Below are positions 25,877-52,678 of a stretch of DNA of 64,000 bases, in pieces (position 1 is the first letter of the stretch; the number at the start of each line of letters is the position of its first letter). A program made the translations under genes and the position numbers. Below the pieces are notes generated by a model, which worked only from the letters and a program-made list of their open reading frames with translations, had not been told where the DNA came from and did no database searches. The DNA comes from Escherichia coli (GTDB taxonomy: Bacteria; Pseudomonadota; Gammaproteobacteria; Enterobacterales; Enterobacteriaceae): the NCBI RefSeq assembly GCF_003790525.1, contig NZ_CP033635.1, one strand, 5' to 3'.

Positions 25877-25890
25877 TCCCCTCTGGGGAG
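25877..25890 (+). repeat. island direct repeat, left copy (attL core)
   Basis: TCCCCTCTGGGGAG, identical to 52665-52678. Confidence 0.8.
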
Positions 25891-26018
25891 GATCTATTGA
25901 TATCAACTGATTTCAACAGAGCTAACCCCTCCCCCTTTAACCCCCTTTGAAATAAGATATCATCAGAAATTCCTTTTCTCTGGGGGTCAATCATATTCCA
26001 TGAACATCAAGATGATTT

Positions 26019-26039
26019 TGGGGGCTATTCTGGGGGCTA
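26019..26039 (+). repeat. tandem TGGGGGCTA repeats (putative integrase arm-type sites), left end
   Basis: TGGGGGCTA at 26019-26027 and 26031-26039, plus the variant TGGGGGTCA at 25981-25989. The same 9-mer pair recurs at the right end. Confidence 0.6.
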
Positions 26040-26056
26040 CATTTCAGGGGTAACTC

Positions 26057-27250
26057 ATGCCACTTACTGTTCGACAAATTGAGTCGGCTAAACCTGCTGA
26101 CAAGGATTACAAACTTTCTGACGGTCAGGGCCTTTATCTTCTTGTCAAAAAATCCGGTGCCCGTTACTGGAATCTGAAGTACCGGTTTGCCGGTAAGGAA
26201 AAGAAACTGGTGATTGGTGTCTATCCTGACATATCACTGGCTCAGGCTCGTCAGAAGCGGGATGAAGCACGTAAACTTCTGGCTGAAGGTAAAGATCCGT
26301 CGTATGAAAAACAGGCGCGAAAACTTGCCATCAGGGAAAGTATGGCCTGCACATTTCGCACCATTGCAGAGGAGCTGCTTACTCATATGGCACGTCGATG
26401 GACAACAGGTTACCAGGCAGACCAGCGTGCAAGACTTGAAAATCATGTTTTCCCTGCTCTTGGAAACCGTCCTGTGACCGGGATCCGCCCCATGGAAATA
26501 CTGAACGTCCTGAGGACTATAGAAGAACAGGGAAAACTTGAAGCACTGCGTAAAACACGCCAGCTCTGTGCGCAGGTTTTTGATTATGCCATAGCAACAG
26601 GGCGTGCAACCGTTAATCCGGCATCGACACTCAGCGGGGTACTGCTTCCTCCTGAAAAACAACAGCGCAGGACGCTTTCTGAAGAACAGATAGGAGCTTT
26701 CATGTATCAGATAACGGCTTCCGGAAATCTGATGTCGCTGGCAACGCGGATGCTGGTTCTGACCGCTGTTCGCACCGGAGAACTGCGACTGGCAACCTGG
26801 GACGAAATTAATTTCACGGAGGCCCTGTGGGTTATTCCGAAAGAAAGAATGAAAATGCGACGACCGCACGTTGTGCCGCTTTCACGGCAGGTACTGGCGT
26901 TACTGGAGGAGATAAAAACACGCACTGAATCGCGTAATTCCGCCTTTATTATTCCTGGTGCATTCAGAAAAGATCTCCCGCGAAACCGCAAGTGTATCAA
27001 TGAATTCCTTGAGCAGTCAGGCTGGCATGCCCTGACAACAGCCCACGGATTTCGTCATACCTTCAGCACCATTCTCCATGACCATGATTTCAGCTCAGCC
27101 TGGATTGAACTCCAGCTTGCTCATGTTGATAAAAACGTCATGCGTGGCACTTATAACCATGCGCAATATCTGGATGGACGTCGTGAAATGATGCAGTGGT
27201 ACGCTGATTACATTGATTCACTTATGGAGAAAAACGTAAAAACGAAATAA
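26057..27250 (+). CDS. P4-type tyrosine integrase
   Basis: 397 aa with a DUF4102-type N-terminus (MPLTVRQIESAKPADKDYKLSDGQGLYLLVKKSGARYWNLKYRF). The C-terminal catalytic region carries HGFRHTF ... LAH ... Y. Confidence 0.93.
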   Translation: MPLTVRQIESAKPADKDYKLSDGQGLYLLVKKSGARYWNLKYRFAGKEKKLVIGVYPDISLAQARQKRDEARKLLAEGKDPSYEKQARKLAIRESMACTFRTIAEELLTHMARRWTTGYQADQRARLENHVFPALGNRPVTGIRPMEILNVLRTIEEQGKLEALRKTRQLCAQVFDYAIATGRATVNPASTLSGVLLPPEKQQRRTLSEEQIGAFMYQITASGNLMSLATRMLVLTAVRTGELRLATWDEINFTEALWVIPKERMKMRRPHVVPLSRQVLALLEEIKTRTESRNSAFIIPGAFRKDLPRNRKCINEFLEQSGWHALTTAHGFRHTFSTILHDHDFSSAWIELQLAHVDKNVMRGTYNHAQYLDGRREMMQWYADYIDSLMEKNVKTK

Positions 27251-27258
27251 GCCATCAC

Positions 27259-27285
27259 CCCCACCAACCACAGCGGTTGGTGGGG
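27259..27285 (+). terminator. hairpin after the integrase gene
   Basis: CCCCACCAACC-acagc-GGTTGGTGGGG, 8 nt after the stop. The T-run begins only ~20 nt later. Confidence 0.5.
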
Positions 27286-27616
27286 AGTTAACTACCATTT
27301 GTATTTTTTGATTTCTGCCTTCAGGCGACATACTCAATATCATCTGATGAGCGAAGATACCCCACCCAAAATGATGGTAGCTTCACATCGTCATTTTCAT
27401 ATAGCAGCACACTGCTGTTCTGACCTCGTAGTCACATTTCTACAGCATCATTACCAGTCAGGCTGATTGCTCCTCATTGAAAGAATGAATCCATGACTAA
27501 CACAAAAATAGCTCTGGCCGGCTGTTACCGGTGTGAGAAGAAACTTGATACAAACTGCCGTGGGCTTTATTCTTGGAGAACTATAAGTTTTTCCAGATTT
27601 ACAACAGATTCAGCAT

Positions 27617-28672
27617 ATGAACAGATTACGCTTTGAAGTGAAGAATAATCAGGGCTGCTTCATTTTCCCGGAAACCTGGTATGAATCACTACTGGAGAAG
27701 TTTAACGAACTGCTTGACTCCTTTGACGAGGATGAGATCAGCGACAGGTCTTATATCAATGCCCTGAAGCGTATCACACAACAGGAACCGGATTTTATTG
27801 ATGCGTATGCATACATGGCATATGCCTTTCTGGAGCAGGAGACACCGCGAAAAGCGCTGAATATTGCACTCAAAGGACTGGCGGCAGGTAACCGACTGAT
27901 ACCTGAAGGTTTCACCGGTGAAATCAGCTGGTTACATCCGGAAAACAGGCCCTTTCTGAATGCCCTTTACGCCGCCATCCTCGCGAATGTGCACCTGCAG
28001 CATCATCAGAATGCTGTCATGCTCATTGATAAAATTCTGGCTTACAATCCTTCAGATAATCCGGGAGCACGCTGGTTACTGGGACCGGAACTGTTGCGTT
28101 CTGGTGACCATGAACGGGCTCTCTGTGTTCTCCGGCAGTATGCAGATGAATTTTCGCCTTACTGGTATGAGCTTGGTCTTCTGCATTTTATTAATGGAGA
28201 GCCGGTGAAGGCAGCGACAGCTTTCCGGCGCGGCTTTGCAGAAAATACTTATATCGCGGAGATTCTATGCGGAAATCTGTACCCCTTCCCGCTTGCCCTT
28301 TGGCATGATTATTCATCTGAGCCGGATACAGCCAGACAGTATTATGAAACATTCTGCCCGTTATGGGGAAAATATCCCGAGGCATTGTTATTTGTTAACT
28401 GGCTCTACAACCAGTCTGGCGTACTGAGCGAACGGGCTGAATTCATGAAGTGTGCTGAAATGCTGTTAAGGGCAGATGATCAGGAAATGAATGAAAGCAT
28501 TTTTCAGCAGCGGGAGCTCTTACGGGAAAGAATTGATGATCGTCTTTCTGAGGAAATCGTTCAGAAATTACGGACATTGAACGGGGAGGAGATCTGGCCC
28601 TGGATGTTACCGTTTTCCGGAGAACTGATCCCCGCAGACATTTGCTTTCAGAACAGTCTGAAATATCAGTAA
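27617..28672 (+). CDS. TPR-like helical-repeat protein, function unknown
   Basis: 351-aa ORF with no TM segment or signal peptide. It has repeated helix-pair segments with TPR-like spacing (e.g. NAVMLIDKILAYNPSDNPGARWLLGPELLRSGDHERAL). The family was not identified. Confidence 0.55.
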   Translation: MNRLRFEVKNNQGCFIFPETWYESLLEKFNELLDSFDEDEISDRSYINALKRITQQEPDFIDAYAYMAYAFLEQETPRKALNIALKGLAAGNRLIPEGFTGEISWLHPENRPFLNALYAAILANVHLQHHQNAVMLIDKILAYNPSDNPGARWLLGPELLRSGDHERALCVLRQYADEFSPYWYELGLLHFINGEPVKAATAFRRGFAENTYIAEILCGNLYPFPLALWHDYSSEPDTARQYYETFCPLWGKYPEALLFVNWLYNQSGVLSERAEFMKCAEMLLRADDQEMNESIFQQRELLRERIDDRLSEEIVQKLRTLNGEEIWPWMLPFSGELIPADICFQNSLKYQ

Positions 28673-28773
28673 TATCTGCACCAGGATGCCATTCCGGGGT
28701 CAGTAAGGATCTTCCCCCTGACCTGGACAAATGTAATGAAACTCAGCTAAGCCCCAGAAGAGCAGGCATATAG

Positions 28774-29154
28774 TCAACCGAGGTCGCTGCAATAAACCAT
28801 CGCGCTTTGATTCCCCCGATGAAGAGGTGACTGGCAGCGACTTCCTGAGCGACGACTTGTCTTTCCATCAATAGCGACTACCTGAGAAGATAAAACAGGA
28901 AGGACTTCTGAACCCCATCGCCGGAACGCAGCTTCAAACTGCTCAGGGACAATCAGCCCAAAAAGACGGGCGAATGTATCATGGGAAGGTATGCCATTTT
29001 TTAGAGGTAAAAAACTGGCGGAGCCACTCAATGCGTTGCCTGCCCAGAGCTCAATTTCCTGAAAATTATCCGCACCGACCAGCACACCACAAACGGCAAT
29101 GGTCAATGTATCAACCAGAGTGTGCCTGACTTGTCCAGGGCTGACAGGGATCAT
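28774..29154 (-). pseudogene. ISAs1-family (H-repeat) transposase, N-terminal fragment
   Basis: VRHTLVDTLTIAVCGVLVGADNFQEIELWAGN...GIPSHDTFARLF...VVAIDGKTSRRS matches the N-terminal associated domain of ISAs1/YhhI-type transposases. The DDE domain is missing. Confidence 0.75.
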
Positions 29155-29281
29155 GTATTGAGATGAATATATCGGTAACCGGCGGTATATGAGACATAAT
29201 ATATCCCTTTGATAAAAAAGGTTATGTTGACATATTTATCCTGCATGTCACGTATCATTATTTTTCATGCGATTGCCCTGC

Positions 29282-29400
29282 GGTTACCACCGCTCACAGT
29301 TAGTAAAGGACTGGGCGGAAGTGGTCAATATAAGGTTGCATTACCTTCCTCCTTATAGTCCGAATCTGAATCCGATTGAACGGATGTGGAAAAATGCTGC
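29282..29400 (+). pseudogene. IS630-family transposase, C-terminal fragment
   Basis: Frame reads ...QLVKDWAEVVNIRLHYLPPYSPNLNPIERMWKNAA*. This is the conserved LPPYSP-LNPIE motif around the catalytic E of IS630/Tc1 transposases. Confidence 0.75.
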
Positions 29401-29716
29401 TTAATAGTATTGATGTTCATCTTTATGCCTCTAAAAGAAAGCATAAGATCACAACAGGCTCAGCAGGTCAATCACTCTATTTTTGTTCAAAAAACGTTCA
29501 TGATCTTGCCCTACCCAATTTTGTGGGTAAGGATATGCGATGAAATTCTCCTTGCAGTTTAATACAACCTTTCCATATTAAGCGGCAGTATTACCTGCCA
29601 GTCAGGATAATTTTACACCTAATGTTAGTTAAAATTTGTGCAACTTGAAACAATAATACTACAGTATCCACTATCGTCAGCACACCTCAAATACTATTTT
29701 TTATGAAACGTTTATT

Positions 29717-30373
29717 TTATAAATCATTATCAATCAAACTCAGGAATGTATCTCTGGCATAATTACCAACGATGTTGGTTGTTATCGCATCAAGACTACC
29801 ACCAACGATTCCTCCTACAACAGGAACAAACTTTGACATATTAATAACACCAGTAGCACCTGTTTTTGTAAGCAGTCTGAAACCGACTGCCTTATTTATC
29901 TTTACAATAATATCTTTACTAATACATCTAATTGCATTTGTTGTCAACTTTTGTCCTATCTGAATTCCTGCTTCCTTCAAAATATCTTTCGCAGCATTAC
30001 CTACAAGACAGGTATAAACAATAGTTCTGACTTTATCATCACGAATATCCTGGCCACACATGATCGCAATAGATGCAACCATCCTGACCTGAATGAAAAG
30101 GACACTTGAAATATTGGTCGGTATAGTTACTGGTAATGTAATAATTCCTCCAAGACCAGTAAGAAAACCTGATGTGGCTGACTTGGTATTTTGCCATCGA
30201 ATAAGGCTATTTATCTGTTCTTTTAAACTACTACCCGTTTTCAGATAACTTTCCGCAAGACTATGTGCCGTATCAATTCCTGGGATACCAATACCATCGA
30301 TGGATTTTTCATAAGCGTAATCCAGAAATTTTATGATTTTTGATGGCGTGAGAATATTTTCATTATCAGTCAT
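29717..30373 (-). CDS. EcsC-family protein
   Basis: ATG at 30373 (MTDNENIL...). It shows EcsC-like features: SLIRWQNTKSATSGFLTGLGGIITLPVTIPTNISSVLFIQVRMVASIA and a Gly-rich C-terminal segment VPVVGGIVGGSLDA. AT-rich. Confidence 0.65.
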   Translation of the reverse strand: MTDNENILTPSKIIKFLDYAYEKSIDGIGIPGIDTAHSLAESYLKTGSSLKEQINSLIRWQNTKSATSGFLTGLGGIITLPVTIPTNISSVLFIQVRMVASIAIMCGQDIRDDKVRTIVYTCLVGNAAKDILKEAGIQIGQKLTTNAIRCISKDIIVKINKAVGFRLLTKTGATGVINMSKFVPVVGGIVGGSLDAITTNIVGNYARDTFLSLIDNDL

Positions 30374-30464
30374 ACAACAAAACACCTAAAAATTTCACGA
30401 TCACTTTCTAAAAACTATCTCCGACAGATATCGGAACACCAGTATTATCACCAATTAAATAATA

Positions 30465-30656
30465 TTATTTTTTGAGAAACAATTGTATTGCTCTGGCAAA
30501 AAGATTTTCTGTAATTGTAGCCTTACGTTTATAAATAACTTTCTCTCCACACACAGGACATTCATAAAATCCTGCTGTACAATTCATATGAATAATAGTT
30601 TTACTCCATTGACAATTTGTACAGATAAATGTAATGGGTGGACAGGGAAAAATCAT
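30465..30656 (-). CDS. small zinc-ribbon protein (63 aa)
   Basis: From ATG 30656: MIFPCPPITFICTNCQWSKTIIHMNCTAGFYECPVCGEKV..., with two CxxC knuckles. The track ORF begins 10 codons earlier at a GTG. It lies 91 nt upstream of the EcsC gene. Confidence 0.5.
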   Translation of the reverse strand: MIFPCPPITFICTNCQWSKTIIHMNCTAGFYECPVCGEKVIYKRKATITENLFARAIQLFLKK

Positions 30657-30746
30657 TGGCTCACACTCTCGATATATAAATAACACTTACAGGGACATGT
30701 AAATATTTTCGATTTATCCCTATAAAAATAACTTCACCTCCAGTAA

Positions 30747-31100
30747 TCAATTCAGTTCTGTAAGACGATCGATTATTTTACGTAGTTCATCTGCAGAATC
30801 ACATGTATCCAGTGAAATTTTTATTCTAAAATTCTTTAACCAATTAGCAGCCTCCTGATCTTCACGCCATAAACGCTCCCCGCTCCAATCCCCCCTAAAA
30901 CATAGAGCAGCAATAGCCAATCCTCTGCATGCTGGCCGATTATGCTCAGATGTATTATTTTGGTTATAAAAATCGTTAATTCTTTCTACCGGAGATGATT
31001 TTATTTTATCCCACACATTGAAATTAGCTTTTTTCATCGTTTCAGCAGCAGCATTAGAAGCAAGCTTACCGAATCCCATTATAGCATCCCAAAATCCCAT
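30747..31100 (-). CDS. hypothetical protein (117 aa)
   Basis: ORF preceded by AAGGTGA. No recognisable family. AT-rich, and on the same strand as its neighbours. Confidence 0.5.
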   Translation of the reverse strand: MGFWDAIMGFGKLASNAAAETMKKANFNVWDKIKSSPVERINDFYNQNNTSEHNRPACRGLAIAALCFRGDWSGERLWREDQEAANWLKNFRIKISLDTCDSADELRKIIDRLTELN

Positions 31101-31136
31101 ATATCACCTTATGCTATATAATATCTAAATGAGTAT

Positions 31137-31226
31137 CTAATCTTTTAGAACCACTATTTGGACAATGGTTTTACGCCACTTACATCTGGTACAAATGAAT
31201 GTAACCGGGGGCTGAGGAAGTGCCAT
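31137..31226 (-). pseudogene. truncated paralog of the zinc-ribbon ORF (29 codons)
   Basis: MALPQPPVTFICTRCKWRKTIVQIVVLKD* aligns with the first ~23 codons of the 30465-30656 product (MIFPCPPITFICTNCQWSKTIIH). The second CxxC knuckle is absent. Confidence 0.4.
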
Positions 31227-31312
31227 GAAGGTACGTGTCTGTTGTATTAAACTATCAAATCAGACCACACGCTGCGATTTTGAATTTAACAACGTGTAGT
31301 CAGATATTACAT

Positions 31313-32062
31313 TCAGAAGCTGTATGTAGCACCTAACGTAAATTCGTTACTTCTGACATCAACAGAGGATTTATATGTATCCTGCCCGTCTTCATACGTC
31401 AGGGTTGAATCACCTGCATCAAGATAGCGATAAGCAAGGTCAAGACTGAAATCCGGGGTGACCTCATATTTCACGCCAACACCAAGGCTCCATGCGAAAT
31501 TGTTATCATATCCCGAGTAATGTAATGAAGAAGCATCACTTACTTCACCTGATTTATTCCAGGAGGTATCGGTGTATGTTGCCTTATGATGTACCCGCGC
31601 ATAACCCAGTCCGGCTGATACCCACGGAGTGAAAGCACTGCTGTTTCTGAAATCATAATACGTGTTCACCATCAGGGTATTCACGCTGAGCCTGTTTTGT
31701 GTGTCTTCCTTCCAACCATTATCTCCAGACGGGGACTCCCATGTATCCAGTGGATAGCGGGAATTCGCAGAGCCGCGACCATAGAATTCAACTTCCGTGC
31801 GTACAGGGACATTGTAGTGCTGATAAAAGTCGTATCCCACCGCAAGGCCAGCACCAAAAACCGTATCGCTCTTGTCACCGCCTTTATACTTATAAACATC
31901 ATCCCCAAAGTCCTGACTAAAGCGCTGATTATCCTGAGTGATAACAGATGCACCAGCCTTACCCGTGATATAGAAACCGGTTTTATCCGCATCTGCCAGC
32001 GTCAGCGTTGAAAACGTACCGGTAAGCGCAGCTACCGCAGTGAGTGCCAGTAACTTTTTCAC
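31313..32062 (-). CDS. outer-membrane beta-barrel protein (OmpA-like/Opa-type, possibly Tia/Hek-like)
   Basis: 249 aa with a signal peptide MKKLLALTAVAALTGTFSTLTLA. It has alternating amphipathic strands, aromatic girdles and a C-terminal ...TLGATYSF. Confidence 0.7.
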   Translation of the reverse strand: MKKLLALTAVAALTGTFSTLTLADADKTGFYITGKAGASVITQDNQRFSQDFGDDVYKYKGGDKSDTVFGAGLAVGYDFYQHYNVPVRTEVEFYGRGSANSRYPLDTWESPSGDNGWKEDTQNRLSVNTLMVNTYYDFRNSSAFTPWVSAGLGYARVHHKATYTDTSWNKSGEVSDASSLHYSGYDNNFAWSLGVGVKYEVTPDFSLDLAYRYLDAGDSTLTYEDGQDTYKSSVDVRSNEFTLGATYSF

Positions 32063-32377
32063 AATCCACCTCTCCTGATGTTTCCTTCAGACATATGAAT
32101 TTGTCCAATTTTAAGACGGATTTCTCATTGGTAAAATGAATTGTACAGATCGTATCGATCGACAAAGTCGATCGTTAAGCAGAAAAAAGATTTATCGTCA
32201 GCGAAGATTTGTTTATGGAAATGACTGAAAAAACGGGTTAAAAAACAGACTGTTCTGTCCATGTGAAACGGGAAGTGACGGGATAAGACGTTATGTGAGG
32301 ATTGTTACGGGAAATGCTGTTTTACGTTGTTAAAATGTAACTCCGCAATGAAACTATCCCCTGTGGAGGTCCTGTAA

Positions 32378-32731
32378 ATGAACAAAGCACTCTCTTCCAT
32401 TCTGCTCATCTTCGGTATCTGTGCATCATCACTGGCCGCTGAAAAAAACAGAACCGTCAGTTTTCCACGATGTGAAGTACAGGAAGCATCAGCTGTTGCA
32501 GCCAGCGTCAAACGGGACTATCTCCAGAAACAGGTATTTCAGTGGAAAGATGATCAGGAAATTCTCGGTCAGCAGCGTCCCGTTGTCTGGGTGAATCTTC
32601 GTGAGCCGGTAAATAAAGGTGATAATGTCATCACAGTGCATCTCACTGCCCGTGGAAAGAAAGCAGATATTCAGTATCGTGTGCGCGTTGACTGTAAGAA
32701 CGGAAGTGCTACCTGGCAACGCCAGGGATGA
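32378..32731 (+). CDS. YebF-family secreted protein (island paralog)
   Basis: 117 aa with a signal peptide. [39 protein letters not shown]...[21 protein letters not shown] parallels YebF ([22 protein letters not shown]...ADIHYQVSVDCKAG). Confidence 0.7.
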   Translation: [117 protein letters not shown]

Positions 32732-32777
32732 ACGGGTGAAGTTGAATACAGAGCCCGAACGAACGGGCTCTCCATAC

Positions 32778-33350
32778 TCATCGTATATAACTGAATGCGG
32801 TGATGACGTGTTTCACCCCCGCCACGCGACTGGCGATATCAGCAGCAGCCTGTCCTTCCTTCTCTGTAACTCTCCCCATAAGAAAGACTTCACCATTCTC
32901 CGTCAGTACCTTTACATCTGACAGTTTCACCCTGCTGCTCTTCAGTAACTGTGCCCGGATTTTTGTGGTCAGCCACGCATCAGTAGCTGTTTTATCAGCC
33001 CGAAGTGGTTTTCCCGTCCTTATTTCATTCCATACCTGCACAGTCCCCTCAACACCATCTGCAATCTGACGGGCTTTTTCACCTGCACTACGGTCTGGTG
33101 CCTGCCCTGTCAGCAGTACAGTGCCCTGGTATGCTGTGACGATGATTCGCGCATCCCCCCTGAGTTGTGAGTCCTTCGACAGCGCACGGCTGACCCTTGC
33201 TTCCAGAATTTCATCATCAATCTGCGTTCCCGCACTTCGGGGGTCCACTGACACTTTAGTACCCACAGCAGCCGTACCGACCAGCGCAGCGGCAACACAA
33301 CCCTGTAACAGCAACAGAGTCGAAAGAAAAGGCAGAAACCAGCGTTGCAT
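32778..33350 (-). CDS. dual-BON-domain lipoprotein, DolP(YraP)/OsmY-like
   Basis: ATG 33350 is preceded by GGAGG. Lipobox LLLQGC. Two BON-type segments (...IIVTAYQGTVLLTGQAP... and ...VKVLTENGEVFLMGRVT...). Confidence 0.75.
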   Translation of the reverse strand: MQRWFLPFLSTLLLLQGCVAAALVGTAAVGTKVSVDPRSAGTQIDDEILEARVSRALSKDSQLRGDARIIVTAYQGTVLLTGQAPDRSAGEKARQIADGVEGTVQVWNEIRTGKPLRADKTATDAWLTTKIRAQLLKSSRVKLSDVKVLTENGEVFLMGRVTEKEGQAAADIASRVAGVKHVITAFSYIR

Positions 33351-33673
33351 GGCAGAATCCTCCACGGTCTGATATCCGGAATTTCGCAGTATGACGGCAG
33401 GAATCAGCCATCACAGATACCACAAGCTTCAGAGAGTAACGAAAACGTTAAAGGAAACGGAAGTGCCTGAATGTAAAGAACGGGGAACCACACAGGGTAT
33501 GGACAAACATAATAACAATAACAGGATGAAAATATTGAATAAAAAATAAAAACCGAGACATCATCATTTGCAGTAATAGCCACCTCCTTACCGAAAAGTG
33601 TGAGTTGCCGGACATTTTTTAAACGCATGATAAGGTCTGATGATACAGTCACCCTGCAACCAGGAGGTACATC

Positions 33674-33967
33674 ATGCGTATACGTGTTTTTGGTTACCGG
33701 CACTGCCCTTCAGTCCATCGCATCATGCATCACGCAACGCGAATCCCCGATGAAATGGAACCGGATGTTGTGTTTATTGATGTCGCGAAGCACAGTGTGA
33801 CGCTGCGGGATATGGCTGACCGTGCAGGCTGCCCGGTGGATAACTTCCCGTGTGTGTTTGTTGATGATGTCTATCTGGAGCCCCTCCACCAGAACCGGGC
33901 AAACCGCACTTTACATACTGCTGAATATTTATTACCGGATATGGACAATCGCTTTCATTCGGGATAA
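33674..33967 (+). CDS. hypothetical protein, weak glutaredoxin-like pattern
   Basis: 97 aa, GGAGG 7 nt upstream. IRVFGYRHCPSV...FPCVFVDDVYL resembles the beta-alpha-beta start and the VPxIFI strand of Grx/NrdH, but with a single Cys. The assignment is tentative. Confidence 0.4.
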   Translation: MRIRVFGYRHCPSVHRIMHHATRIPDEMEPDVVFIDVAKHSVTLRDMADRAGCPVDNFPCVFVDDVYLEPLHQNRANRTLHTAEYLLPDMDNRFHSG

Positions 33968-35470: not shown

Positions 35471-35503
35471 TGTTCTAATTTTACTCACTATAGGTACTGA
35501 ATT

Positions 35504-40147: not shown

Positions 40148-40158
40148 GGGCAAATCCA

Positions 40159-46046: not shown

Positions 46047-46931
46047 ATGTCATTCAGCCATTCTTCCCTTTCCGCACACGTAAAATCACATCTGACCTTT
46101 CTTCCTGAAGAAATACGCCAGAAAATCCTTGAATATCTTCACAGCGTCATTCAGTACGAACCCGTGATTGGCATTATGGGTAAATCCGGTGCCGGAAAAA
46201 GCAGCCTGTGCAATGCCATTTTTCAGTCCCGTGTCTGCGCCACGCATCCACTGAACGGCTGCACCCGTCAGGCTCATCGTCTTACCTTTCAGCCTGGTGA
46301 ACGCAGAATGACGCTCGTCGATCTGCCCGGCACTGGCGAAACACCACAGCATGATCAGGAATACCGGGCACTTTACCGTCAGTTACTGCCCGAACTGGAT
46401 CTGATTATCTGGATCCTGCGTGCTGATGAACGTGCGTATGCTGCCGACATCGCCATGCATCAGTTTTTACTGAATGAAGGTGCCGATCCCTCGCGTTTTC
46501 TGTTTGTTCTCAGCCATGCTGATCGCATCCACCCGGCTGAAGAATGGAACAGCCAGAGCAACACGCCATCCCGTCAGCAGGAACTCTCACTGGCAACAGT
46601 AACAGCCCGGGTGGCAACCCTGTTCCCTTCATCATTTCCGGTACTCCCCATAGCTGCCCCTGCAGGCTGGAATCTTCCGGCATTTGTGTCACTGATGATC
46701 CACGCCCTGCCACCACAGGCAACCAGCACGGTTTATTCGCATATCCGGAATGAAAAGCGCACTGCGCAGGATCAGCAACACGCACAGCAGGCTTTTGGTG
46801 ACGCCATCGGCCAGAGCTTTGACGCGGCCATTGCCCGGTTCAGCTTTCCGGCCTGGATGCTGCAGCTTCTGCGTAAAGCCCGTGATCGCATTATCCGCCT
46901 GCTGGTCACACTGTGGGATCGCCTGTTCTGA
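46047..46931 (+). CDS. YeeP/YfjP/YkfA-type GTPase (50S ribosome-binding GTPase family), intact
   Basis: 294 aa with a P-loop GIMGKSGAGKSSLCNAIF and a DLPG switch. This is the typical first gene of the CP4-type conserved module. Confidence 0.85.
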   Translation: MSFSHSSLSAHVKSHLTFLPEEIRQKILEYLHSVIQYEPVIGIMGKSGAGKSSLCNAIFQSRVCATHPLNGCTRQAHRLTFQPGERRMTLVDLPGTGETPQHDQEYRALYRQLLPELDLIIWILRADERAYAADIAMHQFLLNEGADPSRFLFVLSHADRIHPAEEWNSQSNTPSRQQELSLATVTARVATLFPSSFPVLPIAAPAGWNLPAFVSLMIHALPPQATSTVYSHIRNEKRTAQDQQHAQQAFGDAIGQSFDAAIARFSFPAWMLQLLRKARDRIIRLLVTLWDRLF

Positions 46932-47116
46932 ATTTCCCCGCTTTTTGACCGGCACAGACGATGACCAGGGAACGCATTTCCGGCGGCTTTACCACAATGC
47001 TGAAGGGCTTTTGGTAAACCTCATTCATTTCATCCATCAGGCAGCGTCTTCTCCGGGAGATGCGGCTTTTTCATTGATTACGTCAGTCAGTCTTAACCAC
47101 TGATAAGGAGCAAAGT

Positions 47117-47935
47117 ATGCGATTAGCCAGTCGTTTTGGTTATGCGAACCAGATACGCCGTGACCGTCCGCTGACACATGAAGAGCTGATGCACCATGTG
47201 CCCGGGATTTTCGGGGAGGATAAGCACACCTCCCGGAGCCGGAACTATACATACATCCCCACCATCACCGTGCTGGAAAGCCTGCAACGGGAAGGCTTTC
47301 AGCCGTTCTTTGCCTGCCAGACCCGCGTGCGTGACCCGGGACGCCGGGGATACACAAAGCACATGCTGCGTCTGCGCCGTGACGGGGAGATAAACGGACA
47401 GCATGTCCCTGAAATCATCCTGCTCAACTCCCATGACGGCACCTCCAGCTACCAGATGCTGCCGGGTTACTTCCGGTTCGTGTGTCAGAACGGATGTGTC
47501 TGTGGTCAGTCTCTCGGAGAGGTGCGTGTCCCGCACCGGGGAGACGTGGTGGACAGGGTCATTGAAGGGGCTTACGAGGTGGTGGGCGTGTTTGACCGGA
47601 TAGAGGAAAAGCGTGATGCCATGCAGTCACTGATTTTACCACCACCGGCTCGTCAGGCGCTGGCACAGGCCGCCCTGACTTACCGTTATGGTGACGAACA
47701 TCAGCCCGTCACCACCGCCGACATTCTGACACCACGACGCCGGGAGGATTACGGTCAGGACCTGTGGAGTGCTTATCAGACCATCCAGGAGAATATGCTG
47801 AAAGGCGGGATTTCCGGTCGCAGTGCAAAAGGAAAACGTATCCATACCCGGGCCATTCACAGCATTGATACCGATATAAAACTCAACCGCGCATTGTGGG
47901 TGATGGCAGAAACGCTGCTGGAGAGCATGCGCTGA
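47117..47935 (+). CDS. DUF932-family protein (YfjQ/YafZ-like)
   Basis: 272 aa. MRLASRFGYANQIRRDRPLTHEELMHHVPGIFGEDKH...LLNSHDGTSSYQ matches YfjQ/YafZ. Confidence 0.85.
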   Translation: MRLASRFGYANQIRRDRPLTHEELMHHVPGIFGEDKHTSRSRNYTYIPTITVLESLQREGFQPFFACQTRVRDPGRRGYTKHMLRLRRDGEINGQHVPEIILLNSHDGTSSYQMLPGYFRFVCQNGCVCGQSLGEVRVPHRGDVVDRVIEGAYEVVGVFDRIEEKRDAMQSLILPPPARQALAQAALTYRYGDEHQPVTTADILTPRRREDYGQDLWSAYQTIQENMLKGGISGRSAKGKRIHTRAIHSIDTDIKLNRALWVMAETLLESMR

Positions 47936-48016
47936 TGCCGTTTCCCTGAGTGAGGGAATCATTCAGCTTTCGTTCCTGAAAAACACACATTTATTTGTTA
48001 TTTAAGGAGTTATCTC

Positions 48017-48457
48017 ATGAAAACCGTTTCTCAGAATACCCCCACAATTTATTCAGCTACAACACCAGAGAATAATCCGCCTCAGTTGGTTGCCAGCCTC
48101 GTCCCTGATGAACAGCGCATCAGCTTCTGGCCGCAGCATTTTGGCCTCATTCCACAGTGGGTGACCCTGGAGCCCCGTGTCTTCGGCTGGATGGACCGTC
48201 TGTGCGAAGACTACTGCGGTGGTATCTGGAATCTGTACACCCTGAACAACGGCGGCGCATTTATGGCCCCCGAACCGGATGATGATGATGACGAAACATG
48301 GGTACTGTTCAATGCCATGAACGGTAACCGCGCTGAAATGAGCCCGGAAGCCGCCGGCATTGCTGCCTGTCTGATGACGTACAGTCATCATGCCTGTCGT
48401 ACGGAGTGTTATGCCATGACGGTTCATTATTACCGTCTGCGGGATTACGCCCTGTAG
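48017..48457 (+). CDS. antirestriction protein, KlcA/ArdB family (YfjX-like)
   Basis: 146 aa. ISFWPQHFGLIPQWVTLEPRVFGWMDRLCEDYCGGIWNLYTLNNGGAFMAP matches YfjX. Confidence 0.85.
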   Translation: MKTVSQNTPTIYSATTPENNPPQLVASLVPDEQRISFWPQHFGLIPQWVTLEPRVFGWMDRLCEDYCGGIWNLYTLNNGGAFMAPEPDDDDDETWVLFNAMNGNRAEMSPEAAGIAACLMTYSHHACRTECYAMTVHYYRLRDYAL

Positions 48458-48511
48458 CATCCGGAATGCAGCGCCATTATGCGCATCATTGACTGAAAGG
48501 GGGCCGGAACA

Positions 48512-48988
48512 ATGCAACAGATTTCCTTTCTGCCCGGAGAAATGACAACCAGAGAGCGCAGCCTCATTCAGCGGGCCCTGAAAGCCCTGGACCGCCATCT
48601 TCATGAACCCGGCGTGGCCTTCACCTCCACCCGTGCGGCACGGGAATGGCTGATTCTGAACATGGCGGGACTGGAGCGGGAAGAGTTCCGGGTGCTGTAC
48701 CTGAACAACCAGAATCAGCTGATTGCCGGTGAAACCCTCTTCACCGGCACCATCAACCGCACGGAAGTCCATCCCCGGGAGGTGGTTAAACGCGCCCTGT
48801 ACCACAATGCCGCTGCCGTGGTGCTGGCACACAATCATCCGTCCGGTGAAGTCACACCCGGTAAGGCAGACCGGCTTATCACTGAACGTCTGGTACAGGC
48901 ACTGGCCCTGGTGGATATCCGGGTGCCGGACCATCTGATAATCGGTGGCAGCCGGGTGTTCTCCTTTGCCGAACACGGTCTGCTTTAA
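48512..48988 (+). CDS. RadC-like JAB-domain protein (YfjY/YeeS-like)
   Basis: 158 aa with the JAMM motif HNHPSGEVTPGKADRLIT. Confidence 0.88.
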   Translation: MQQISFLPGEMTTRERSLIQRALKALDRHLHEPGVAFTSTRAAREWLILNMAGLEREEFRVLYLNNQNQLIAGETLFTGTINRTEVHPREVVKRALYHNAAAVVLAHNHPSGEVTPGKADRLITERLVQALALVDIRVPDHLIIGGSRVFSFAEHGLL

Positions 48989-49077
48989 TCCGTCACCGTC
49001 ACAACCACCTTCATATTGTCACTTCAGTTTCTCTTTCTCAGCTGTTTCTCACTTTCACATTCAGGAGGACTGTTCTC

Positions 49078-49299
49078 ATGAAAATCGTCACCCGTGGTGA
49101 AGCCATGCGCGTTCACCGTCAGTATCCGTCATCCCGTCTTTTTCCGTTCTGCACCGGTAAGTACCGCTGGCACGGCGGCACTGAGGCGTATACCGGTCGT
49201 GAAGTGCAGGATATCCCCGGCGTACTGGCCGTGTTTGCCGAACGCCGCAAGGACAGTTTTGGCCCGTATGTCCGGCTGATGAGCGTCACCCTGAACTGA
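49078..49299 (+). CDS. DUF987-family protein (YpjJ/YeeT-like)
   Basis: 73 aa. MKIVTRGEAMRVHRQYPSSRLFPFCTGKYRWHG... matches YpjJ/YeeT. Confidence 0.85.
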   Translation: MKIVTRGEAMRVHRQYPSSRLFPFCTGKYRWHGGTEAYTGREVQDIPGVLAVFAERRKDSFGPYVRLMSVTLN

Positions 49300-49315
49300 G
49301 TCAGTGGAGATGCTG

Positions 49316-49960
49316 ATGAGCAGCATTATCACCACCACCGTGTATACGCTGAATGAACTTTCCGCCACAGCACGGGAAAAAGCCCGCGGCTGGTACCGTC
49401 AGCATCATGCTGACAGCCGCTGGTATGAAAACGTGTATGAGGACTTCAGGGCGGTCTGTGAGATTGTCGGGATTGTCCTCCGCCAGCGTGTTATCCGGCT
49501 CAGCAGCGGCAGGTTTATGGAAGAGCCGTGCATCTGGTTCAGCGGATTCTGCAGCCAGGGGGACGGAGCCTGTTTTGAAGGGCGCTGGCACTGGCAGCCG
49601 GCAACAGCCAGGCGAGTCCGGGAATATGCCCCGCAGGACCGTGAGCTTCATCGTATCACGGATGCCCTGCAGGCGGTGCAGAAGCATAACTTCCGGCAGT
49701 TACAGGCTGAAATCCGTCACCGGGGACGCTACTGCCATCCGTACAGCATGGATATCACCGTCACCCGGGACAGCCCGACCGGACAGGCAATGACAGCCGG
49801 CGCGGAAACCGTTGTCTGTGACGCCCTGCGGGACCTGGCCTTCTGGTTATACAGTCAACTGGAAAACGAGTACGACTGGCTGACCTCAGATGACGCCGTG
49901 GATGAGGCGCTTCTCATCAACGGATACACCTTCACCGAAGCCGGTCTGCGCGCCGGCTGA
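49316..49960 (+). CDS. conserved island protein of unknown function (214 aa)
   Basis: ATG 49316 is preceded by GGAG (alternative starts at 49304/49310). The ORF lies between the DUF987 and cbeA-like genes. I recall homologs being annotated loosely as antitoxin-associated, but I cannot assign a family. Confidence 0.55.
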   Translation: MSSIITTTVYTLNELSATAREKARGWYRQHHADSRWYENVYEDFRAVCEIVGIVLRQRVIRLSSGRFMEEPCIWFSGFCSQGDGACFEGRWHWQPATARRVREYAPQDRELHRITDALQAVQKHNFRQLQAEIRHRGRYCHPYSMDITVTRDSPTGQAMTAGAETVVCDALRDLAFWLYSQLENEYDWLTSDDAVDEALLINGYTFTEAGLRAG

Positions 49961-50010
49961 CCCGTCATTGTTAAAACCATTCTTAACCGATTATCAGTGA
50001 GGACTTTATC

Positions 50011-50388
50011 ATGTCAGACACACTCACCGGGACAACGCATCCCGACGACAACAGCGACCGCCCCTGGTGGGGGCTGCCCTGCACCGTGACGCCCTGTTTC
50101 GGTGCCCGTCTGGTGCAGGAGGGTAACCGCCTGCATTACCTTGCAGACCGCGCCGGCATCAGAGGCCGGTTCAGCGACGCAGATGCGTACCACCCGGACC
50201 AGGCCTTTCCGCTGCTGATGAAACAGCTGGAACTCATGCTCACCAGTGGTGAACTCAGTCCCCGCCATCAGCATACCGTCACACTGTATGCGAAAGGGCT
50301 GACCTGCGAAGCCGACACCCTCGGCAGTTGTGGTTACGTGTATATCGCCATTTATCCGACACCGGCAACACCCGGAACCACCGCATAA
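50011..50388 (+). CDS. type IV antitoxin, CbeA/YeeU/YfjZ family
   Basis: 125 aa. [55 protein letters not shown] is the family hallmark. Confidence 0.88.
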
Positions 50389-50434
50389 CCCCGGACAGCA
50401 CTTCTTTATCACCACCTGTTACAGAGTACTTAAG

Positions 50435-50809
50435 ATGAAAACATTCCCCGACACACATGTACGGGCAACATCGCGCTGCCCGTCTCCGGTTGAAATCTGG
50501 CAGACACTGCTCACCCGGTTGCTGGACCAGCACTACGGCCTCACGCTGAATGACACACCGTTCGCCGATGAACGTGTGATTGAACAGCATATTGAGGCAG
50601 GTATTTCACTGTGTGATGCGGTGAACTTTCTCGTGGAAAAATACGCACTGGTGCGTACCGACCAGCCGGGATTCAGTGCCTGCACCCGCTCTCAGTTAAT
50701 CAACAGCATTGATATCCTCCGGGCCCGCCGGGCAACCGGCCTGATGACCCGCAGCCACTACCGAATGGTGAGCAACATCACCCTGGGTAAACACTGTGAG
50801 GTGAAATGA
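50435..50809 (+). CDS. type IV toxin, CbtA/YeeV/YpjF family
   Basis: Start at [43 protein letters not shown] (124 aa). The track ORF adds 35 unsupported codons. Confidence 0.88.
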
Positions 50810-51297
50810 TGAAACTGTCCCTGACGCTGGAAGCAGACAGCGTTAACGTCCGGGCACTGAACATGGGGCGCATTGTCGCTGACGTCGATGGTGTTAATCT
50901 CGCTGAACTGATTAACGTGGTCTGCGATAACGGCTGTTCCCTTCGTGTTGTTGATGAATCTGACCGGACCTCAGCAGACTGCATGCCACCATTTACTGCC
51001 CTTACCGGCATACGCTGCAGTACCGCACATATCACGGAACAGGACAATGCCTGGCTGTACTCGCTGTCGCATCAGACGAATGACAACGGCGAATCAGAAT
51101 GGATTCATTTTACAGGCAGCGGATATCTGTTACGTACTGATGCGTGGTCGTACCCGGCTCTGCGGCTTAAACGCCTGGGGCTGTCAAAAACCTTCCGCCG
51201 TCTGGTTGTCACACTTATCCGGCGTTATGGCGTCAGTCTCATTCATCTGGATGCCGGCGCTGAATGTCTGCCGGGTTTACCCACTTTCGACTGGTAA
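50806..51297 (+). CDS. DUF5983-family protein (YeeW-like)
   Basis: 163 aa. ATGA overlap with the cbtA-like stop. The gene position and sequence are YeeW-like. Confidence 0.7.
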
Positions 51298-51316
51298 CCG
51301 GGACAAAAGACACCGT

Positions 51317-51514
51317 ATGAAATCATTAACCACAGAAACGGCACCGGATATTCTGATTGCGTGGCTGCAGGACAATATCGACTGCGGCTCCGGCATTATC
51401 TTCGACAACGATGAGGATAAAACGGATTCGGCAGCACTGCTGCCCTGTATCGAACAGGCCAGAGCGGATATCCGCACCCTGCGCCACCTGCAGCTTCAGC
51501 ACCAGAACCGGTGA
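51317..51514 (+). CDS. DUF957-family small protein
   Basis: 65 aa from ATG 51317: MKSLTTETAPDILIAWLQDNIDCGSGIIFDNDEDKTDSAALLPCIEQARADIRTLR. Only this tail of track ORF 50945-51514 is credible. Confidence 0.65.
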   Translation: MKSLTTETAPDILIAWLQDNIDCGSGIIFDNDEDKTDSAALLPCIEQARADIRTLRHLQLQHQNR

Positions 51515-51609
51515 GTCTCACTCATCATCTCACTCACCACGATTCATTCCCCTGACGCCAGTCCGAATACGGCTGGCGTTTTCATTTATAAACCACAAGG
51601 AAAAATGTA

Positions 51610-52458
51610 ATGTCTGATATCACAATCCCTTATCCGGAAGCGGTCAACGGACATACGGACGTTATCTGCTCCACAGATATCCGGCACGTTGTGACGGTAC
51701 GGAATGAAGCACTGCAACAAACCGAAAGGGTTATCCGGCAACTGGCAGAAATCTCAGCAATGACAGAAAGCATAGGCGGTAAAACGGCGCGGGACTGGGC
51801 CGTGAAACAGGATTTTCGCTGTGGCTGCTGGCTGATGGAAAAACCGGAAACCGCAATGAAAGCCATCACCCGGAACCTTGACCGTGAAATCTGGCGTGAC
51901 CTGATGCAACGCTCCGGGATGCTGAGTCTGATGGATGCACAGGCGCGTGATGAATGGTACCGTTCACAGGAGGACGATAATTTCCCGGAAATCAGCGAAG
52001 CGAATATCCTGAGCACGTCTGAACAACTGCACCGTAACAGGGATGAAATGGCTGAACGGGGCGTCATCAACCTCTTCAGGGGACTGAGCCGGACGCAAAA
52101 CAGCGGGTCACCCTGTAAATTCGGCAGCAAGATTATCCTCAACAACCTGGTGAAATGGGACTGGTGGGGATTTGGTCTGAACCATGGCCCGCAGGCCGGG
52201 CGGCTTGCCGACCTGGAAAGAATGTTGTATCTGTTCAGTGGTAAACCCATACCCGATTACAGGGACAATATCCTCATTCGTCTGGATGAGCACATCCGGT
52301 CCGTTCAGGGTGAAGCGTGTTATGAAGATGAGATGTTCAGCATCAGATACTTCAGGAAAGGCTCTGCGCATATCACGTTTAAACACCCGGAACTGGTGGA
52401 GAAGCTGAATGCTGTTCTGGCGAAACATTATTCGGTAAAGTTCCATTCTTCTGTATAA
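51610..52458 (+). CDS. DUF4942-family protein (terminal gene of CP4-type islands)
   Basis: 282 aa. It is the last ORF before the right junction, and it resembles the DUF4942 proteins that end such islands. Confidence 0.65.
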   Translation: MSDITIPYPEAVNGHTDVICSTDIRHVVTVRNEALQQTERVIRQLAEISAMTESIGGKTARDWAVKQDFRCGCWLMEKPETAMKAITRNLDREIWRDLMQRSGMLSLMDAQARDEWYRSQEDDNFPEISEANILSTSEQLHRNRDEMAERGVINLFRGLSRTQNSGSPCKFGSKIILNNLVKWDWWGFGLNHGPQAGRLADLERMLYLFSGKPIPDYRDNILIRLDEHIRSVQGEACYEDEMFSIRYFRKGSAHITFKHPELVEKLNAVLAKHYSVKFHSSV

Positions 52459-52583
52459 ACTTACAGATCACGGGTATTGTGTCTCGTCCTGAACAGGGCC
52501 GACAGGTATACTGCATTCGCTGAGCCATTACAGATAATGCCTCAACTGAGTTCAATCTACCTCCATGTACAACAACAATACGA

Positions 52584-52604
52584 TGGGGGCTACATTGGGG
52601 GCTA
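52584..52604 (+). repeat. tandem TGGGGGCTA repeats (putative arm-type sites), right end
   Basis: TGGGGGCTA at 52584-52592 and 52596-52604, in the same orientation as the left-end pair. Confidence 0.6.
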
Positions 52605-52664
52605 TACTTTCAAGTAAAACTGATATAACCAAGATTAAACAATAAGATAGAGAATTTTCACCAT

Positions 52665-52678
52665 TCCCCTCTGGGGAG
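52665..52678 (+). repeat. island direct repeat, right copy (attR core)
   Basis: TCCCCTCTGGGGAG, identical to 25877-25890. It continues into AGGATTAGGGTGAGGGGCG, the native spacer palindrome. Confidence 0.8.

What the first reader, a model, noticed from the sequence alone, without database searches (positions are those of the whole stretch)
25877..52678. 26.8-kb integrase island inserted inside the glnHPQ operon, at an intergenic palindrome rather than a tRNA
Seen: glnH stops at 25839 and glnP starts at 52766. Between them lie a P4-type integrase gene at the left end and a CP4-type conserved module at the right end. The 14-mer TCCCCTCTGGGGAG occurs at 25877-25890 and 52665-52678. Joining the sequence left of the first copy to the sequence right of the second rebuilds an uninterrupted palindromic spacer (CTCTCCCC-TC-TGGGGAGAG followed by GATTAGGGTGAGGGG). 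Established: integrases of this family usually target tRNA/tmRNA 3' ends, and glnHPQ is described as a single transcription unit driven from the glnH promoters. Inference: the NtrC/sigma54 promoter at 24920-25039 can now reach only glnH. glnPQ would then depend on read-through from the island or on a cryptic promoter. The last island gene, at 51610-52458, is on the same strand, and I see no hairpin plus U-tract in 52459-52664.
Basis: partly seen in the sequence, partly recalled or inferred. Interest (0 to 1): 0.6.

Follow-up and report, generated by a model that had tools for sequence, protein, structure and literature searches.

The report
Genomic island integrated into a BoxC repeat
A 26.8-kb mobile island has split the E. 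coli glutamine-transporter operon by inserting precisely into a small repeated palindrome (a BoxC element), and its integrase belongs to a group that uses such palindromes at many chromosomal places instead of the usual tRNA genes.

Summary
TCCCCTCTGGGGAG occurs only at 25877-25890 and 52665-52678. Deleting the DNA between the copies gives a sequence 691/691 identical to the empty glnH-glnP spacer of strain SMS-3-5. About 5,400 of 5,426 complete E. coli genomes have the empty site and 18 have the glnH-integrase junction.

The island has an intact P4-type tyrosine integrase, an AlpA-family gene, paired TGGGGGCTA repeats in both arms, decayed cargo and a CP4-like right-hand module. The window holds no tRNA.

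The target is the stem-loop of a BoxC (PIT/TMECO)-like repeat. Integrases at least 95% identical sit at five further BoxC copies: lptG-yjgR, zntA-tusA, gcvP-ygfF, yhfS-frlR and gabT-gabP. A sister group (82-84% identical) inserts into the palindrome CTCCCCGCCGGGGAG inside ulaE, in both orientations. Relatives at 55% identity or less mostly sit next to tRNA genes.

"gln" and "ula" island sites were already published (Biggel 2020). I found no paper describing the BoxC core or the multi-site use.

The claim that glnPQ is cut off from the glnH promoters is plausible but untested. No terminator or consensus promoter was predicted just upstream of glnP.

The parts
25093..25839 (+). glnH, the last chromosomal gene before the island
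   Evidence: ORF. The protein is identical to K-12 GlnH. It is annotated glnH in matching genomes.
25872..25890 (+). attL core. This is the left block of the BoxC-like repeat (CCCTCTCCCC), the loop TCT and GGGGAG. The 14-bp direct repeat is 25877-25890.
   Evidence: Chromosomal matches in island-free genomes end at 25890.
25891..26056 (+). Integrase-proximal arm of the attachment site (P' arm). It carries tandem TGGGGGCTA repeats at 26019-26027 and 26031-26039.
   Evidence: GGGGGCTA occurs only 4 times in the window, all on the + strand, as two pairs 12 bp apart, one pair in each arm. The same arm lies next to six different chromosomal flanks. Relatives at tRNA sites show GGGGGC doublets at the same position.
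26057..27250 (+). P4-type tyrosine integrase, 397 aa, intact
   Evidence: Pfam Arm-DNA-bind_3, Phage_int_M and Phage_integrase. The motifs R239 (RTGE), H330-x-x-R333 (HGFRH), H356 and Y366 are visible in the translation. The protein is identical to WP_001131672.1, which sits at lptG-yjgR in strain CM2.
27617..40147 (.). Decayed cargo: a TPR protein, an ISAs1 fragment, EcsC, an outer-membrane barrel protein, YebF-like, BON/DolP-like, DoxX, sitA plus the first 50 codons of sitB, an Rpn nuclease and IS2
   Evidence: Pfam and NCBIfam. PGAP annotation of the 99.9% identical stretch in CM2.
41208..41444 (-). AlpA-family small DNA-binding protein, a candidate excisionase or regulator
   Evidence: Pfam PF05930 Phage_AlpA, E 2e-10, above the curated cut-off.
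42418..43149 (-). YagK/YfjJ (inovirus Gp2-like) protein, part of the CP4-type backbone
   Evidence: Pfam PF11726. Annotated the same way in LH50-c and NT1W22.
46047..52458 (+). CP4-type conserved module, co-oriented with glnPQ: YeeP-like GTPase, DUF932, antirestriction, RadC, DUF987, CbeA/YeeU antitoxin, CbtA toxin, DUF5983 and DUF4942
   Evidence: Pfam and matching annotation.
52459..52664 (+). Distal arm of the attachment site (P arm). It carries tandem TGGGGGCTA repeats at 52584-52592 and 52596-52604.
   Evidence: The same arm lies next to glnP, yjgR, tusA, frlR, ygfF and ulaE in other genomes.
52665..52695 (+). attR core plus the remaining BoxC blocks (TCCCC TCT GGGGAGAGGA TTA GGGTGAGGGG). 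The 14-bp direct repeat is 52665-52678.
   Evidence: Empty-site matches start at 52665.
52766..54144 (+). glnP (52766-53425) and glnQ (53422-54144), intact, now 26.9 kb from glnH
   Evidence: Compared with K-12 there are 0 and 1 amino-acid differences and no internal stops.

Best explanation
The segment is a degraded but probably still recombination-competent genomic island of the CP4/P4-integrase type. It entered the chromosome by conservative site-specific recombination between its own attachment site and the stem-loop of a BoxC-like repeat in the glnH-glnP spacer. The element's site reads ...TTCACCAT-TCCCC-TNT-GGGGAG-GATCTATTG...

Shown:
- The junctions are precise, and the empty site is restored exactly when the island is removed in silico.
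- The integrase and an AlpA-family gene are intact.
- Paired TGGGGGCTA repeats lie in both arms.
- The same integrase with the same arms occurs at six different BoxC copies.
- Its sister group occurs at a BoxC-like palindrome inside ulaE, in both orientations.
- More distant relatives mostly sit at tRNA genes.

Inferred:
- The N-terminal arm-binding domain binds the TGGGGGCTA pairs.
- The core-binding and catalytic domains recognise the dyad (C)TCCCC / GGGGA(G). This dyad imitates the stem-loop symmetry that relatives exploit in tRNA genes.
- Strand exchange occurs at or just to the right of the loop's middle base, within (T/C)GGGGAG or the symmetric CC-N3-GG.
- A non-self-complementary loop (T-N-T) fixes the orientation at BoxC sites. 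The nearly perfect palindrome in ulaE (G-N-C) allows both orientations.
- Transcripts from the glnH promoters now run into the integrase gene instead of glnPQ. glnPQ then depends on transcription coming out of the co-oriented right-hand module.
For: Repeat and junctions.

Integrase: domains and motifs; AlpA; arm repeats.

Other sites:
- The identical integrase protein sits at lptG-yjgR in CM2. The empty BoxC is present there in SMS-3-5.
- Integrases 98-99.5% identical sit at zntA-tusA, gcvP-ygfF, yhfS-frlR and gabT-gabP.
- Three of these sites are catalogued TMECO/BoxC elements #11, #15 and #16 of K-12.
- The ulaE subgroup occurs in both orientations.
- A 95.9% identical integrase sits at glnH-glnP in strain 2/0. 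Its 91%-nucleotide-identity class holds 16 genomes.

Relatives:
- The two closest relatives outside E. coli (63% identity) also abut CTCTCCC-N3-GGGAGG palindromes and have no tRNA.
- 39 of the 50 scanned relatives at 55% identity or less have a tRNA gene 150-400 bp upstream.

Crossover position: in CM2 and GPEC1040 attL keeps the native loop base (TTT) while attR carries a different one (TAT, TCT).
Against: Nothing here shows activity in this strain. No circular form or restored empty site was observed.

The cargo is riddled with IS fragments and a truncated sit operon. No transfer genes were recognised.

The exact cleavage positions cannot be read from the sequences, and two models remain open.

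Only about ten genomes and eleven metagenome contigs were inspected for site usage. About 13 of the 23 K-12 BoxC copies fit the core (my count on the table), yet only some are seen occupied. Further determinants, or selection against insertion, must therefore exist.

No promoter was predicted that would explain glnPQ expression.
Confidence: 0.85

Rival explanations
1. The island is a fixed fossil. It integrated once by this route but can no longer move, and the different locations seen in other genomes are old, independent events.
For: There is heavy IS decay, a truncated sit operon and variable island sizes of 27 to about 115 kb. One genome has its island halves 1.6 Mb apart.
Against: The integrase reading frame and catalytic motifs are intact and AlpA is intact. 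The direct repeats are perfect. A 100% identical integrase gene and a 99.9% identical 14.6-kb left part lie at two different loci in different strains, which points to recent movement.
Confidence: 0.2
2. The island reached the different BoxC copies by homologous recombination between the repeats, or by transfer together with its flanks, and not through its own integrase.
For: BoxC copies are 34-37 bp and nearly identical. Their surroundings are reported to be unusually variable, with the mechanism unknown.
Against: Every junction falls at the same nucleotide of the palindrome, with the same two element arms. The ulaE target is not a BoxC repeat, sharing only the 15-bp palindrome, yet it shows the same junction geometry. 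Recombination between chromosomal repeats would invert or delete DNA. It would not move an element cleanly.
Confidence: 0.04
3. The insertion has little physiological effect, because glnPQ is adequately expressed from island-borne transcription or from a weak promoter in the preserved 87-bp leader. The operon split would then be tolerated, not regulatory.
For: GlnP and GlnQ are intact. An island at this site is present in 18 of 5,426 complete genomes and in papGII-carrying clinical lineages. No terminator is predicted in the last 300 bp, and the last 6.4 kb of the island is co-oriented with glnPQ. The GlnZ pairing region near the glnP ribosome-binding site lies in the part that is preserved.
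Against: No consensus sigma-70 promoter is found in 51500-52800, and a terminator-like hairpin lies at 51554-51580. Intact genes prove little if the insertion is recent. Nitrogen control through NtrC at the glnH promoters can hardly survive 26.8 kb of foreign DNA.
Confidence: 0.45

Closest known systems
papGII-carrying pathogenicity islands at the 'gln' and 'ula' sites of uropathogenic E. coli (Biggel et al. 2020, PMC7686366, Supplementary Fig. 5)
   Same: They share the chromosomal positions (between glnH and glnP; between ulaD and ulaE) and have an integrase at one end. Strain 2/0, a urinary isolate, carries a 95.9% identical integrase at the gln site.
   Different: The window's island has no pap operon and is much smaller. 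In the text I could search, that paper describes the sites by flanking genes only and calls the integrases site-specific. Here the gln-type integrase is seen at five further loci. The ula site turns out to be inside ulaE, not between the genes.
P4/CP4-type integrase islands at tRNA or tmRNA genes (CP4-57 with AlpA; CP4-44/CP4-6-type modules with YeeU-CbtA)
   Same: They share the integrase domain architecture, an AlpA-family gene, GGGGGC-type doublets just upstream of int, and the same conserved right-hand module.
   Different: The target is not a tRNA or tmRNA gene. It is a short palindrome present in many copies. Identity to tRNA-site relatives is at most about 55%.
BoxC / PIT / TMECO repeats of E. 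coli (Hoffmann et al. 2015, PMC4666352)
   Same: Three of the occupied sites are TMECO #11, #15 and #16 of K-12. The glnH-glnP spacer has the same three-block layout.
   Different: That study reported no association of the motif with mobile elements. It attributed local variability to DNA structure, with the mechanism unclear. Here the repeat serves as an attachment site. The glnH-glnP copy deviates from their consensus by one base and is not in their list.
Insertion sequences that target REP/BIME palindromes (IS1397, ISKpn1, IS110-family elements). This comparison rests on my own knowledge and was not checked here.
   Same: They also use a dispersed intergenic palindrome as a safe, multi-copy landing site.
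   Different: Those are transposases moving 1-2 kb elements. This is a tyrosine integrase with arm sites moving islands of 27 to about 115 kb, conservatively and reversibly.

Membership tests
P4-type (arm-binding) tyrosine integrase island | Integrase with an N-terminal arm-binding domain, a central domain and a catalytic tyrosine-recombinase domain | tested here: met
   Pfam PF13356, PF22022 and PF00589. The R, H-x-x-R, H and Y motifs are present. The N-terminal domain matches the solved CP4-like integrase domains 3ju0 and 3jtz.
P4-type (arm-binding) tyrosine integrase island | Bounded by direct repeats that are one copy in island-free relatives | tested here: met
P4-type (arm-binding) tyrosine integrase island | Integration into the 3' part of a tRNA or tmRNA gene | tested here: not met
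   The window has no tRNA or tmRNA and the junction lies in an intergenic palindrome. Of the 50 relatives at 55% identity or less that were scanned, 39 are next to tRNA genes.
P4-type (arm-binding) tyrosine integrase island | Excision and integration activity | not testable with these tools
   The only evidence is indirect: an identical integrase gene at two loci.
BoxC / PIT / TMECO repeat (as the target) | Consensus CCCTCNCCC-N3-6-GGGNGAGGG-N3-GGGNGAGGG (PMC4666352) | tested here: inconclusive
   The restored glnH-glnP site reads CCCTCTCCC-CTCTG-GGGAGAGGA-TTA-GGGTGAGGG. It has one mismatch, in the last base of block 2, and is not among the 23 listed K-12 copies. The sites at zntA, gcvP and yhfS are listed copies.
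BoxC / PIT / TMECO repeat (as the target) | Intergenic location | tested here: met
   It lies between glnH and glnP. The ulaE target of the sister group is inside a coding sequence and is not a BoxC element.
CP4-type island backbone | Conserved gene string: YeeP-like GTPase, DUF932, antirestriction, RadC, DUF987, CbeA-CbtA, DUF5983, DUF4942 | tested here: met
   with the same order.
papGII pathogenicity island (Biggel 2020) | Carries a papGII operon | tested here: not met
   No pap genes appear among the island ORFs or in the annotations of near-identical stretches.

The most novel reading that the evidence does not exclude
BoxC/PIT repeats act as a dispersed family of attachment sites for a dedicated and still active integrase lineage that switched from tRNA stem-loops to this palindrome. 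On this reading the lineage accounts for part of the unexplained hypervariability around BoxC elements. It also repeatedly splits operons (glnH|PQ, gabT|P, ulaD|E), placing the downstream genes under island control and the integrase under host promoters such as the nitrogen-regulated glnH promoters.
Probability: 0.4. Interest if true: 0.7.

Novelty: new variant of a known kind. Interest (0 to 1): 0.55.

Why it matters
Integrases of this family are textbook tRNA-site enzymes, and tools that look for islands search next to tRNA genes. A lineage that lands in a 15-bp palindrome present in a dozen or more copies per genome has three consequences.
- It gives islands, including the papGII virulence islands already seen at the gln and ula sites, many alternative entry points.
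- It offers a concrete mechanism for part of the variability reported around BoxC repeats.
- It provides a natural system for asking how a tyrosine recombinase changes target class.

The operon-internal positions also create simple, testable cases of host regulation rewired by an island.

Tried and rejected
- I first suspected gene conversion of the loop triplet, because strain 2/0 has GCC at both junctions while K-12 has TAT. I rejected this: at least 1,042 genomes have GCC natively at the empty site.
- A search for a tRNA or tmRNA remnant at either island end found none in the whole window. Rfam gave only an unrelated sRNA hit.
- Consensus promoter and terminator scans of both island ends found no promoter and no + strand terminator in either scanned end stretch (24700-26100 and 51500-52800) apart from the hairpin at 51554-51580. 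They cannot settle glnPQ expression.
- RNA folding of the native spacer and of both junctions shows the BoxC hairpin but no U-tract and added nothing further.
- PADLOC and Pfam gave nothing for the 407-aa low-GC protein.
- Literature searches for BoxC or TMECO together with integrases found no paper describing the repeat as an attachment site. The library lacks many subscription papers, so this is not proof of absence.
- I did not find the far junction of the NT1W22 ulaE island, which is longer than 50 kb.
Full report
**1. Observation**

The 14-mer TCCCCTCTGGGGAG is present exactly twice in the window, at 25877-25890 and 52665-52678. Both copies are on the + strand, and none is expected by chance. 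glnH ends at 25839 and glnP starts at 52766.

I compared both flanks with 5,426 complete E. coli genomes.
- The left flank matches in 5,421 genomes and in nearly all of them the match stops at 25890.
- Only 18 genomes continue into the integrase gene.
- The right flank matches from 52665 onward in island-free genomes.
- Removing 25891-52678 in silico gives 691 bases with no mismatch to strain SMS-3-5, which has glnH and glnP 138 bp apart.

K-12 has the same spacer with TAT in the loop. At least 1,042 genomes, including Nissle 1917, have GCC. The unit between repeat starts is 26,788 bp.

**2. Anatomy of the island**

| Coordinates | Strand | Feature | Basis |
|---|---|---|---|
| 26057-27250 | + | 397-aa tyrosine integrase with the P4-type arm-binding, central and catalytic domains; the usual R, H-x-x-R, H and Y motifs are present | |
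| 41208-41444 | - | AlpA-family protein | |
| 26020, 26032, 52585, 52597 | + | GGGGGCTA, found only four times in the window, as two pairs 12 bp apart: one pair just upstream of int, one about 70 bp inside the far end | |
| 27617-40147 | mixed | decayed cargo: a TPR protein, an ISAs1 fragment, EcsC, an outer-membrane protein, YebF-like, BON, DoxX, sitA plus 50 codons of sitB, an Rpn nuclease and IS2 | |
| 44723-45946 | - | low-GC 407-aa ORF with no family match | |
| 46047-52458 | + | CP4-type string: GTPase, DUF932, antirestriction, RadC, DUF987, CbeA, CbtA, DUF5983, DUF4942; same strand as glnPQ | |

I read the GGGGGCTA pairs as arm-type integrase sites. Relatives at tRNA sites have GGGGGC doublets at the same place. 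There is no tRNA or tmRNA anywhere in the window.

**3. What the target is**

The restored spacer reads CCCTCTCCCC-TCT-GGGGAGAGGA-TTA-GGGTGAGGGG. This is the three-block layout of the BoxC repeat, also called PIT or TMECO. Its published consensus is CCCTCNCCC-N3-6-GGGNGAGGG-N3-GGGNGAGGG, and K-12 has 23 catalogued copies (PMC4666352). The glnH-glnP copy misses the consensus by one base and is not in that list.

**4. The same integrase at other BoxC copies**

All six BoxC loci in the table show the same orientation. The CCCTCNCCCC block stays on the integrase side, and GGGGAGAGGGTTAGGGTGAGGGG stays on the far side. The "TMECO number" is the copy's number in the K-12 catalogue of PMC4666352.

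| Site | Example | Integrase vs window (amino acids) | attL loop / attR loop | TMECO number |
|---|---|---|---|---|
| glnH-glnP | window | 100% (reference) | TCT / TCT | not listed |
| glnH-glnP | strain 2/0 (island about 57 kb) | 95.9% | GCC / GCC | not listed |
| lptG-yjgR | CM2 (island about 92 kb) | 100% (WP_001131672.1) | TTT / TAT | absent in K-12 |
| zntA-tusA | HCM-27C-1 | 98.5% | TCT / TCT | #16 |
| gcvP-ygfF | TUM9803 | same protein accession as HCM-27C-1 | TTT / TTT | #11 |
| yhfS-frlR | GPEC1040 | not computed (99.9% nucleotide identity) | TTT / TCT | #15 |
| gabT-gabP | metagenome contig L098 | 99.5% | TCT / not seen | not checked |

At lptG-yjgR the empty BoxC is present in SMS-3-5, while K-12 has a REP element there instead.

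Nine complete genomes carry an integrase gene at least 95% identical in nucleotide sequence, and a further 16 fall in the 90-95% band. Strain 2/0 is one of those 16 (91.1%) and is the only one whose junctions I read. Its loop triplet GCC at both junctions is the native one for its lineage.

**5. The sister group in ulaE**

Integrases 82-84% identical to the window's protein form a second group. They are inserted inside ulaE, at codons 15-19, in the palindrome CTCCCC-GCC-GGGGAG.
- In AR_0085 the integrase lies next to ulaD.
- In NT1W22, Eco889 and AF39 it lies next to the rest of ulaE, which is the opposite orientation.
- In metagenome contigs the same arm type appears in both orientations: two forward and six reverse.

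The common denominator of all targets is the dyad (C)TCCCC-N3-GGGGAG.

**6. Relatives in other genera**

A scan of one genome per species returned 80 integrase relatives.
- The two closest are from Lelliottia wanjuensis and Scandinavium, at 63% identity. Neither has a tRNA upstream, and both abut CTCTCCC-N3-GGGAGG palindromes. The Lelliottia one is a BoxC-like element after an FMN-reductase-type gene.
- I scanned the first 52 of the 80 relatives for tRNA genes. Fifty of these are at 55% identity or less, and 39 of the 50 have a tRNA gene (Phe, Arg, Sec, Asn, Gly or Thr) ending 150-400 bp upstream of int.

The palindrome-targeting habit is therefore a derived trait of one clade within a tRNA-targeting family.

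**7. Where the exchange happens**

In five of the seven insertions where I read both junctions, the loop triplet is the same at attL and attR. In CM2 and GPEC1040 it differs: attL keeps the native TTT, while attR carries TAT or TCT next to the element's own TCCCC half-site (native TTT at TMECO #15). The element therefore brings its own left half-site and middle base, and the exchange lies at or to the right of the middle base.

The block shared by every partner on that side is (T/C)GGGGAG. It is seven bases long, the usual size of an overlap region. After it the element reads GATCTATT and the chromosome reads AGGGTTAGGG. A symmetric CC-N3-GG overlap with tolerated heterology at the middle base fits equally well, and the sequences cannot decide between the two.

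Loop asymmetry offers an explanation for the orientation data. T-N-T is not self-complementary, which fits the single orientation at all six BoxC loci. G-N-C in ulaE is self-complementary apart from the middle base, which fits both orientations there. This is inference from the general rule that overlap asymmetry sets directionality in tyrosine recombinases.

**8. Consequences for the operon**

GlnH, GlnP and GlnQ are intact, with 0, 0 and 1 amino-acid differences from K-12.

The scans of the two island ends gave the following.
- No + strand terminator is predicted between the glnH stop and the int start. Transcripts from the glnH promoters would therefore be expected to enter int. This is an inference.
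- At the far end, no terminator-like hairpin and no consensus sigma-70 promoter is predicted in 52459-52765.
- One terminator-like hairpin lies at 51554-51580, before the last island gene.

The 87 bases upstream of glnP are unchanged. They include the region near the ribosome-binding site where the sRNA GlnZ pairs. PIT/BoxC elements were reported to have no promoter or terminator activity.

In strain 2/0 an IS21-type element lies directly before the distal arm, so the upstream context differs between lineages. Whether glnPQ is still expressed or still nitrogen-regulated cannot be decided with these tools.

**9. What was already known**

Biggel et al. [quoted passage not shown] They defined the sites by flanking genes and stated that the integrases are specific to their insertion sites (PMC7686366). 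Hoffmann et al. 2015 catalogued BoxC/TMECO. They found the surroundings unusually variable, found no link to mobile elements, and left the mechanism open.

In the searchable library I found no paper that connects the two, defines the core palindrome, or shows multi-site or two-orientation use.

**10. Verdict**

The island at this position is a further example of a published site. What appears to be new is that the attachment site is a dispersed repeat. One integrase lineage uses at least six copies of it, and a sister lineage uses a look-alike inside a gene.

I rate the structural explanation at 0.85. The regulatory inference is open. Interest is 0.55.

Noticed in passing
window 25840-26056: No + strand terminator is predicted between the glnH stop codon and the integrase start codon. 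The nitrogen-regulated glnH promoters may therefore read into int.
   Followed up: partly
window 44723-45946 (-): A 407-aa ORF in a 33-35% GC patch has no Pfam, NCBIfam or PADLOC match. The annotated gene at the same position in LH50-c (same length and strand, also next to the YeeP-like GTPase gene) is a hypothetical protein.
   Followed up: partly
L091 1966-2877 (E. coli AR_0085): At the ulaE site the island's distal arm supplies an in-frame ATG. The annotated epimerase is a 303-aa fusion in which 33 island-encoded residues replace the first 14 of UlaE, so the disrupted gene may be partly rescued. In the window's arm the same frame is closed by a stop codon.
   Followed up: partly
NZ_CP182371.1 (strain Br_112_kylling), about 2.55 Mb and 4.19 Mb: glnH plus the left 14.5 kb of the island lies about 1.6 Mb from the island's right end plus glnP, and on the opposite strand. 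This suggests a large inversion through island or IS copies.
   Followed up: no
L094 (MG1655) versus L093 (SMS-3-5), lptG-yjgR spacer: The BoxC copy used as an attachment site in CM2 is present in SMS-3-5 but is replaced by a REP-type element in K-12. The attachment sites themselves are therefore polymorphic.
   Followed up: partly
window 35504-36789: The sit iron/manganese transporter operon is reduced to sitA plus the first 50 codons of sitB, followed by IS66 and RelE fragments. The cargo is non-functional here.
   Followed up: yes
window 15417-15459 (+): This is the only Rfam match above threshold in the window: ES036 (CssrF) sRNA, 41.6 bits. It is unrelated to the island.
   Followed up: no
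L010 about 780-1010 (Scandinavium sp.): The palindrome next to the integrase is directly preceded by the end of an ORF that reads like the C-terminus of an IS110-family transposase. That is only my reading of the translated DNA and was not checked.
   Followed up: no
L103 and L106 (metagenome contigs), ulaE junctions: The junction cores vary (CTCCCC-AGC-GGGGAG and CTCCTC-AGC-GGGGAG) compared with the usual GGC. These are either ulaE polymorphisms or bases brought in by the element.
   Followed up: no
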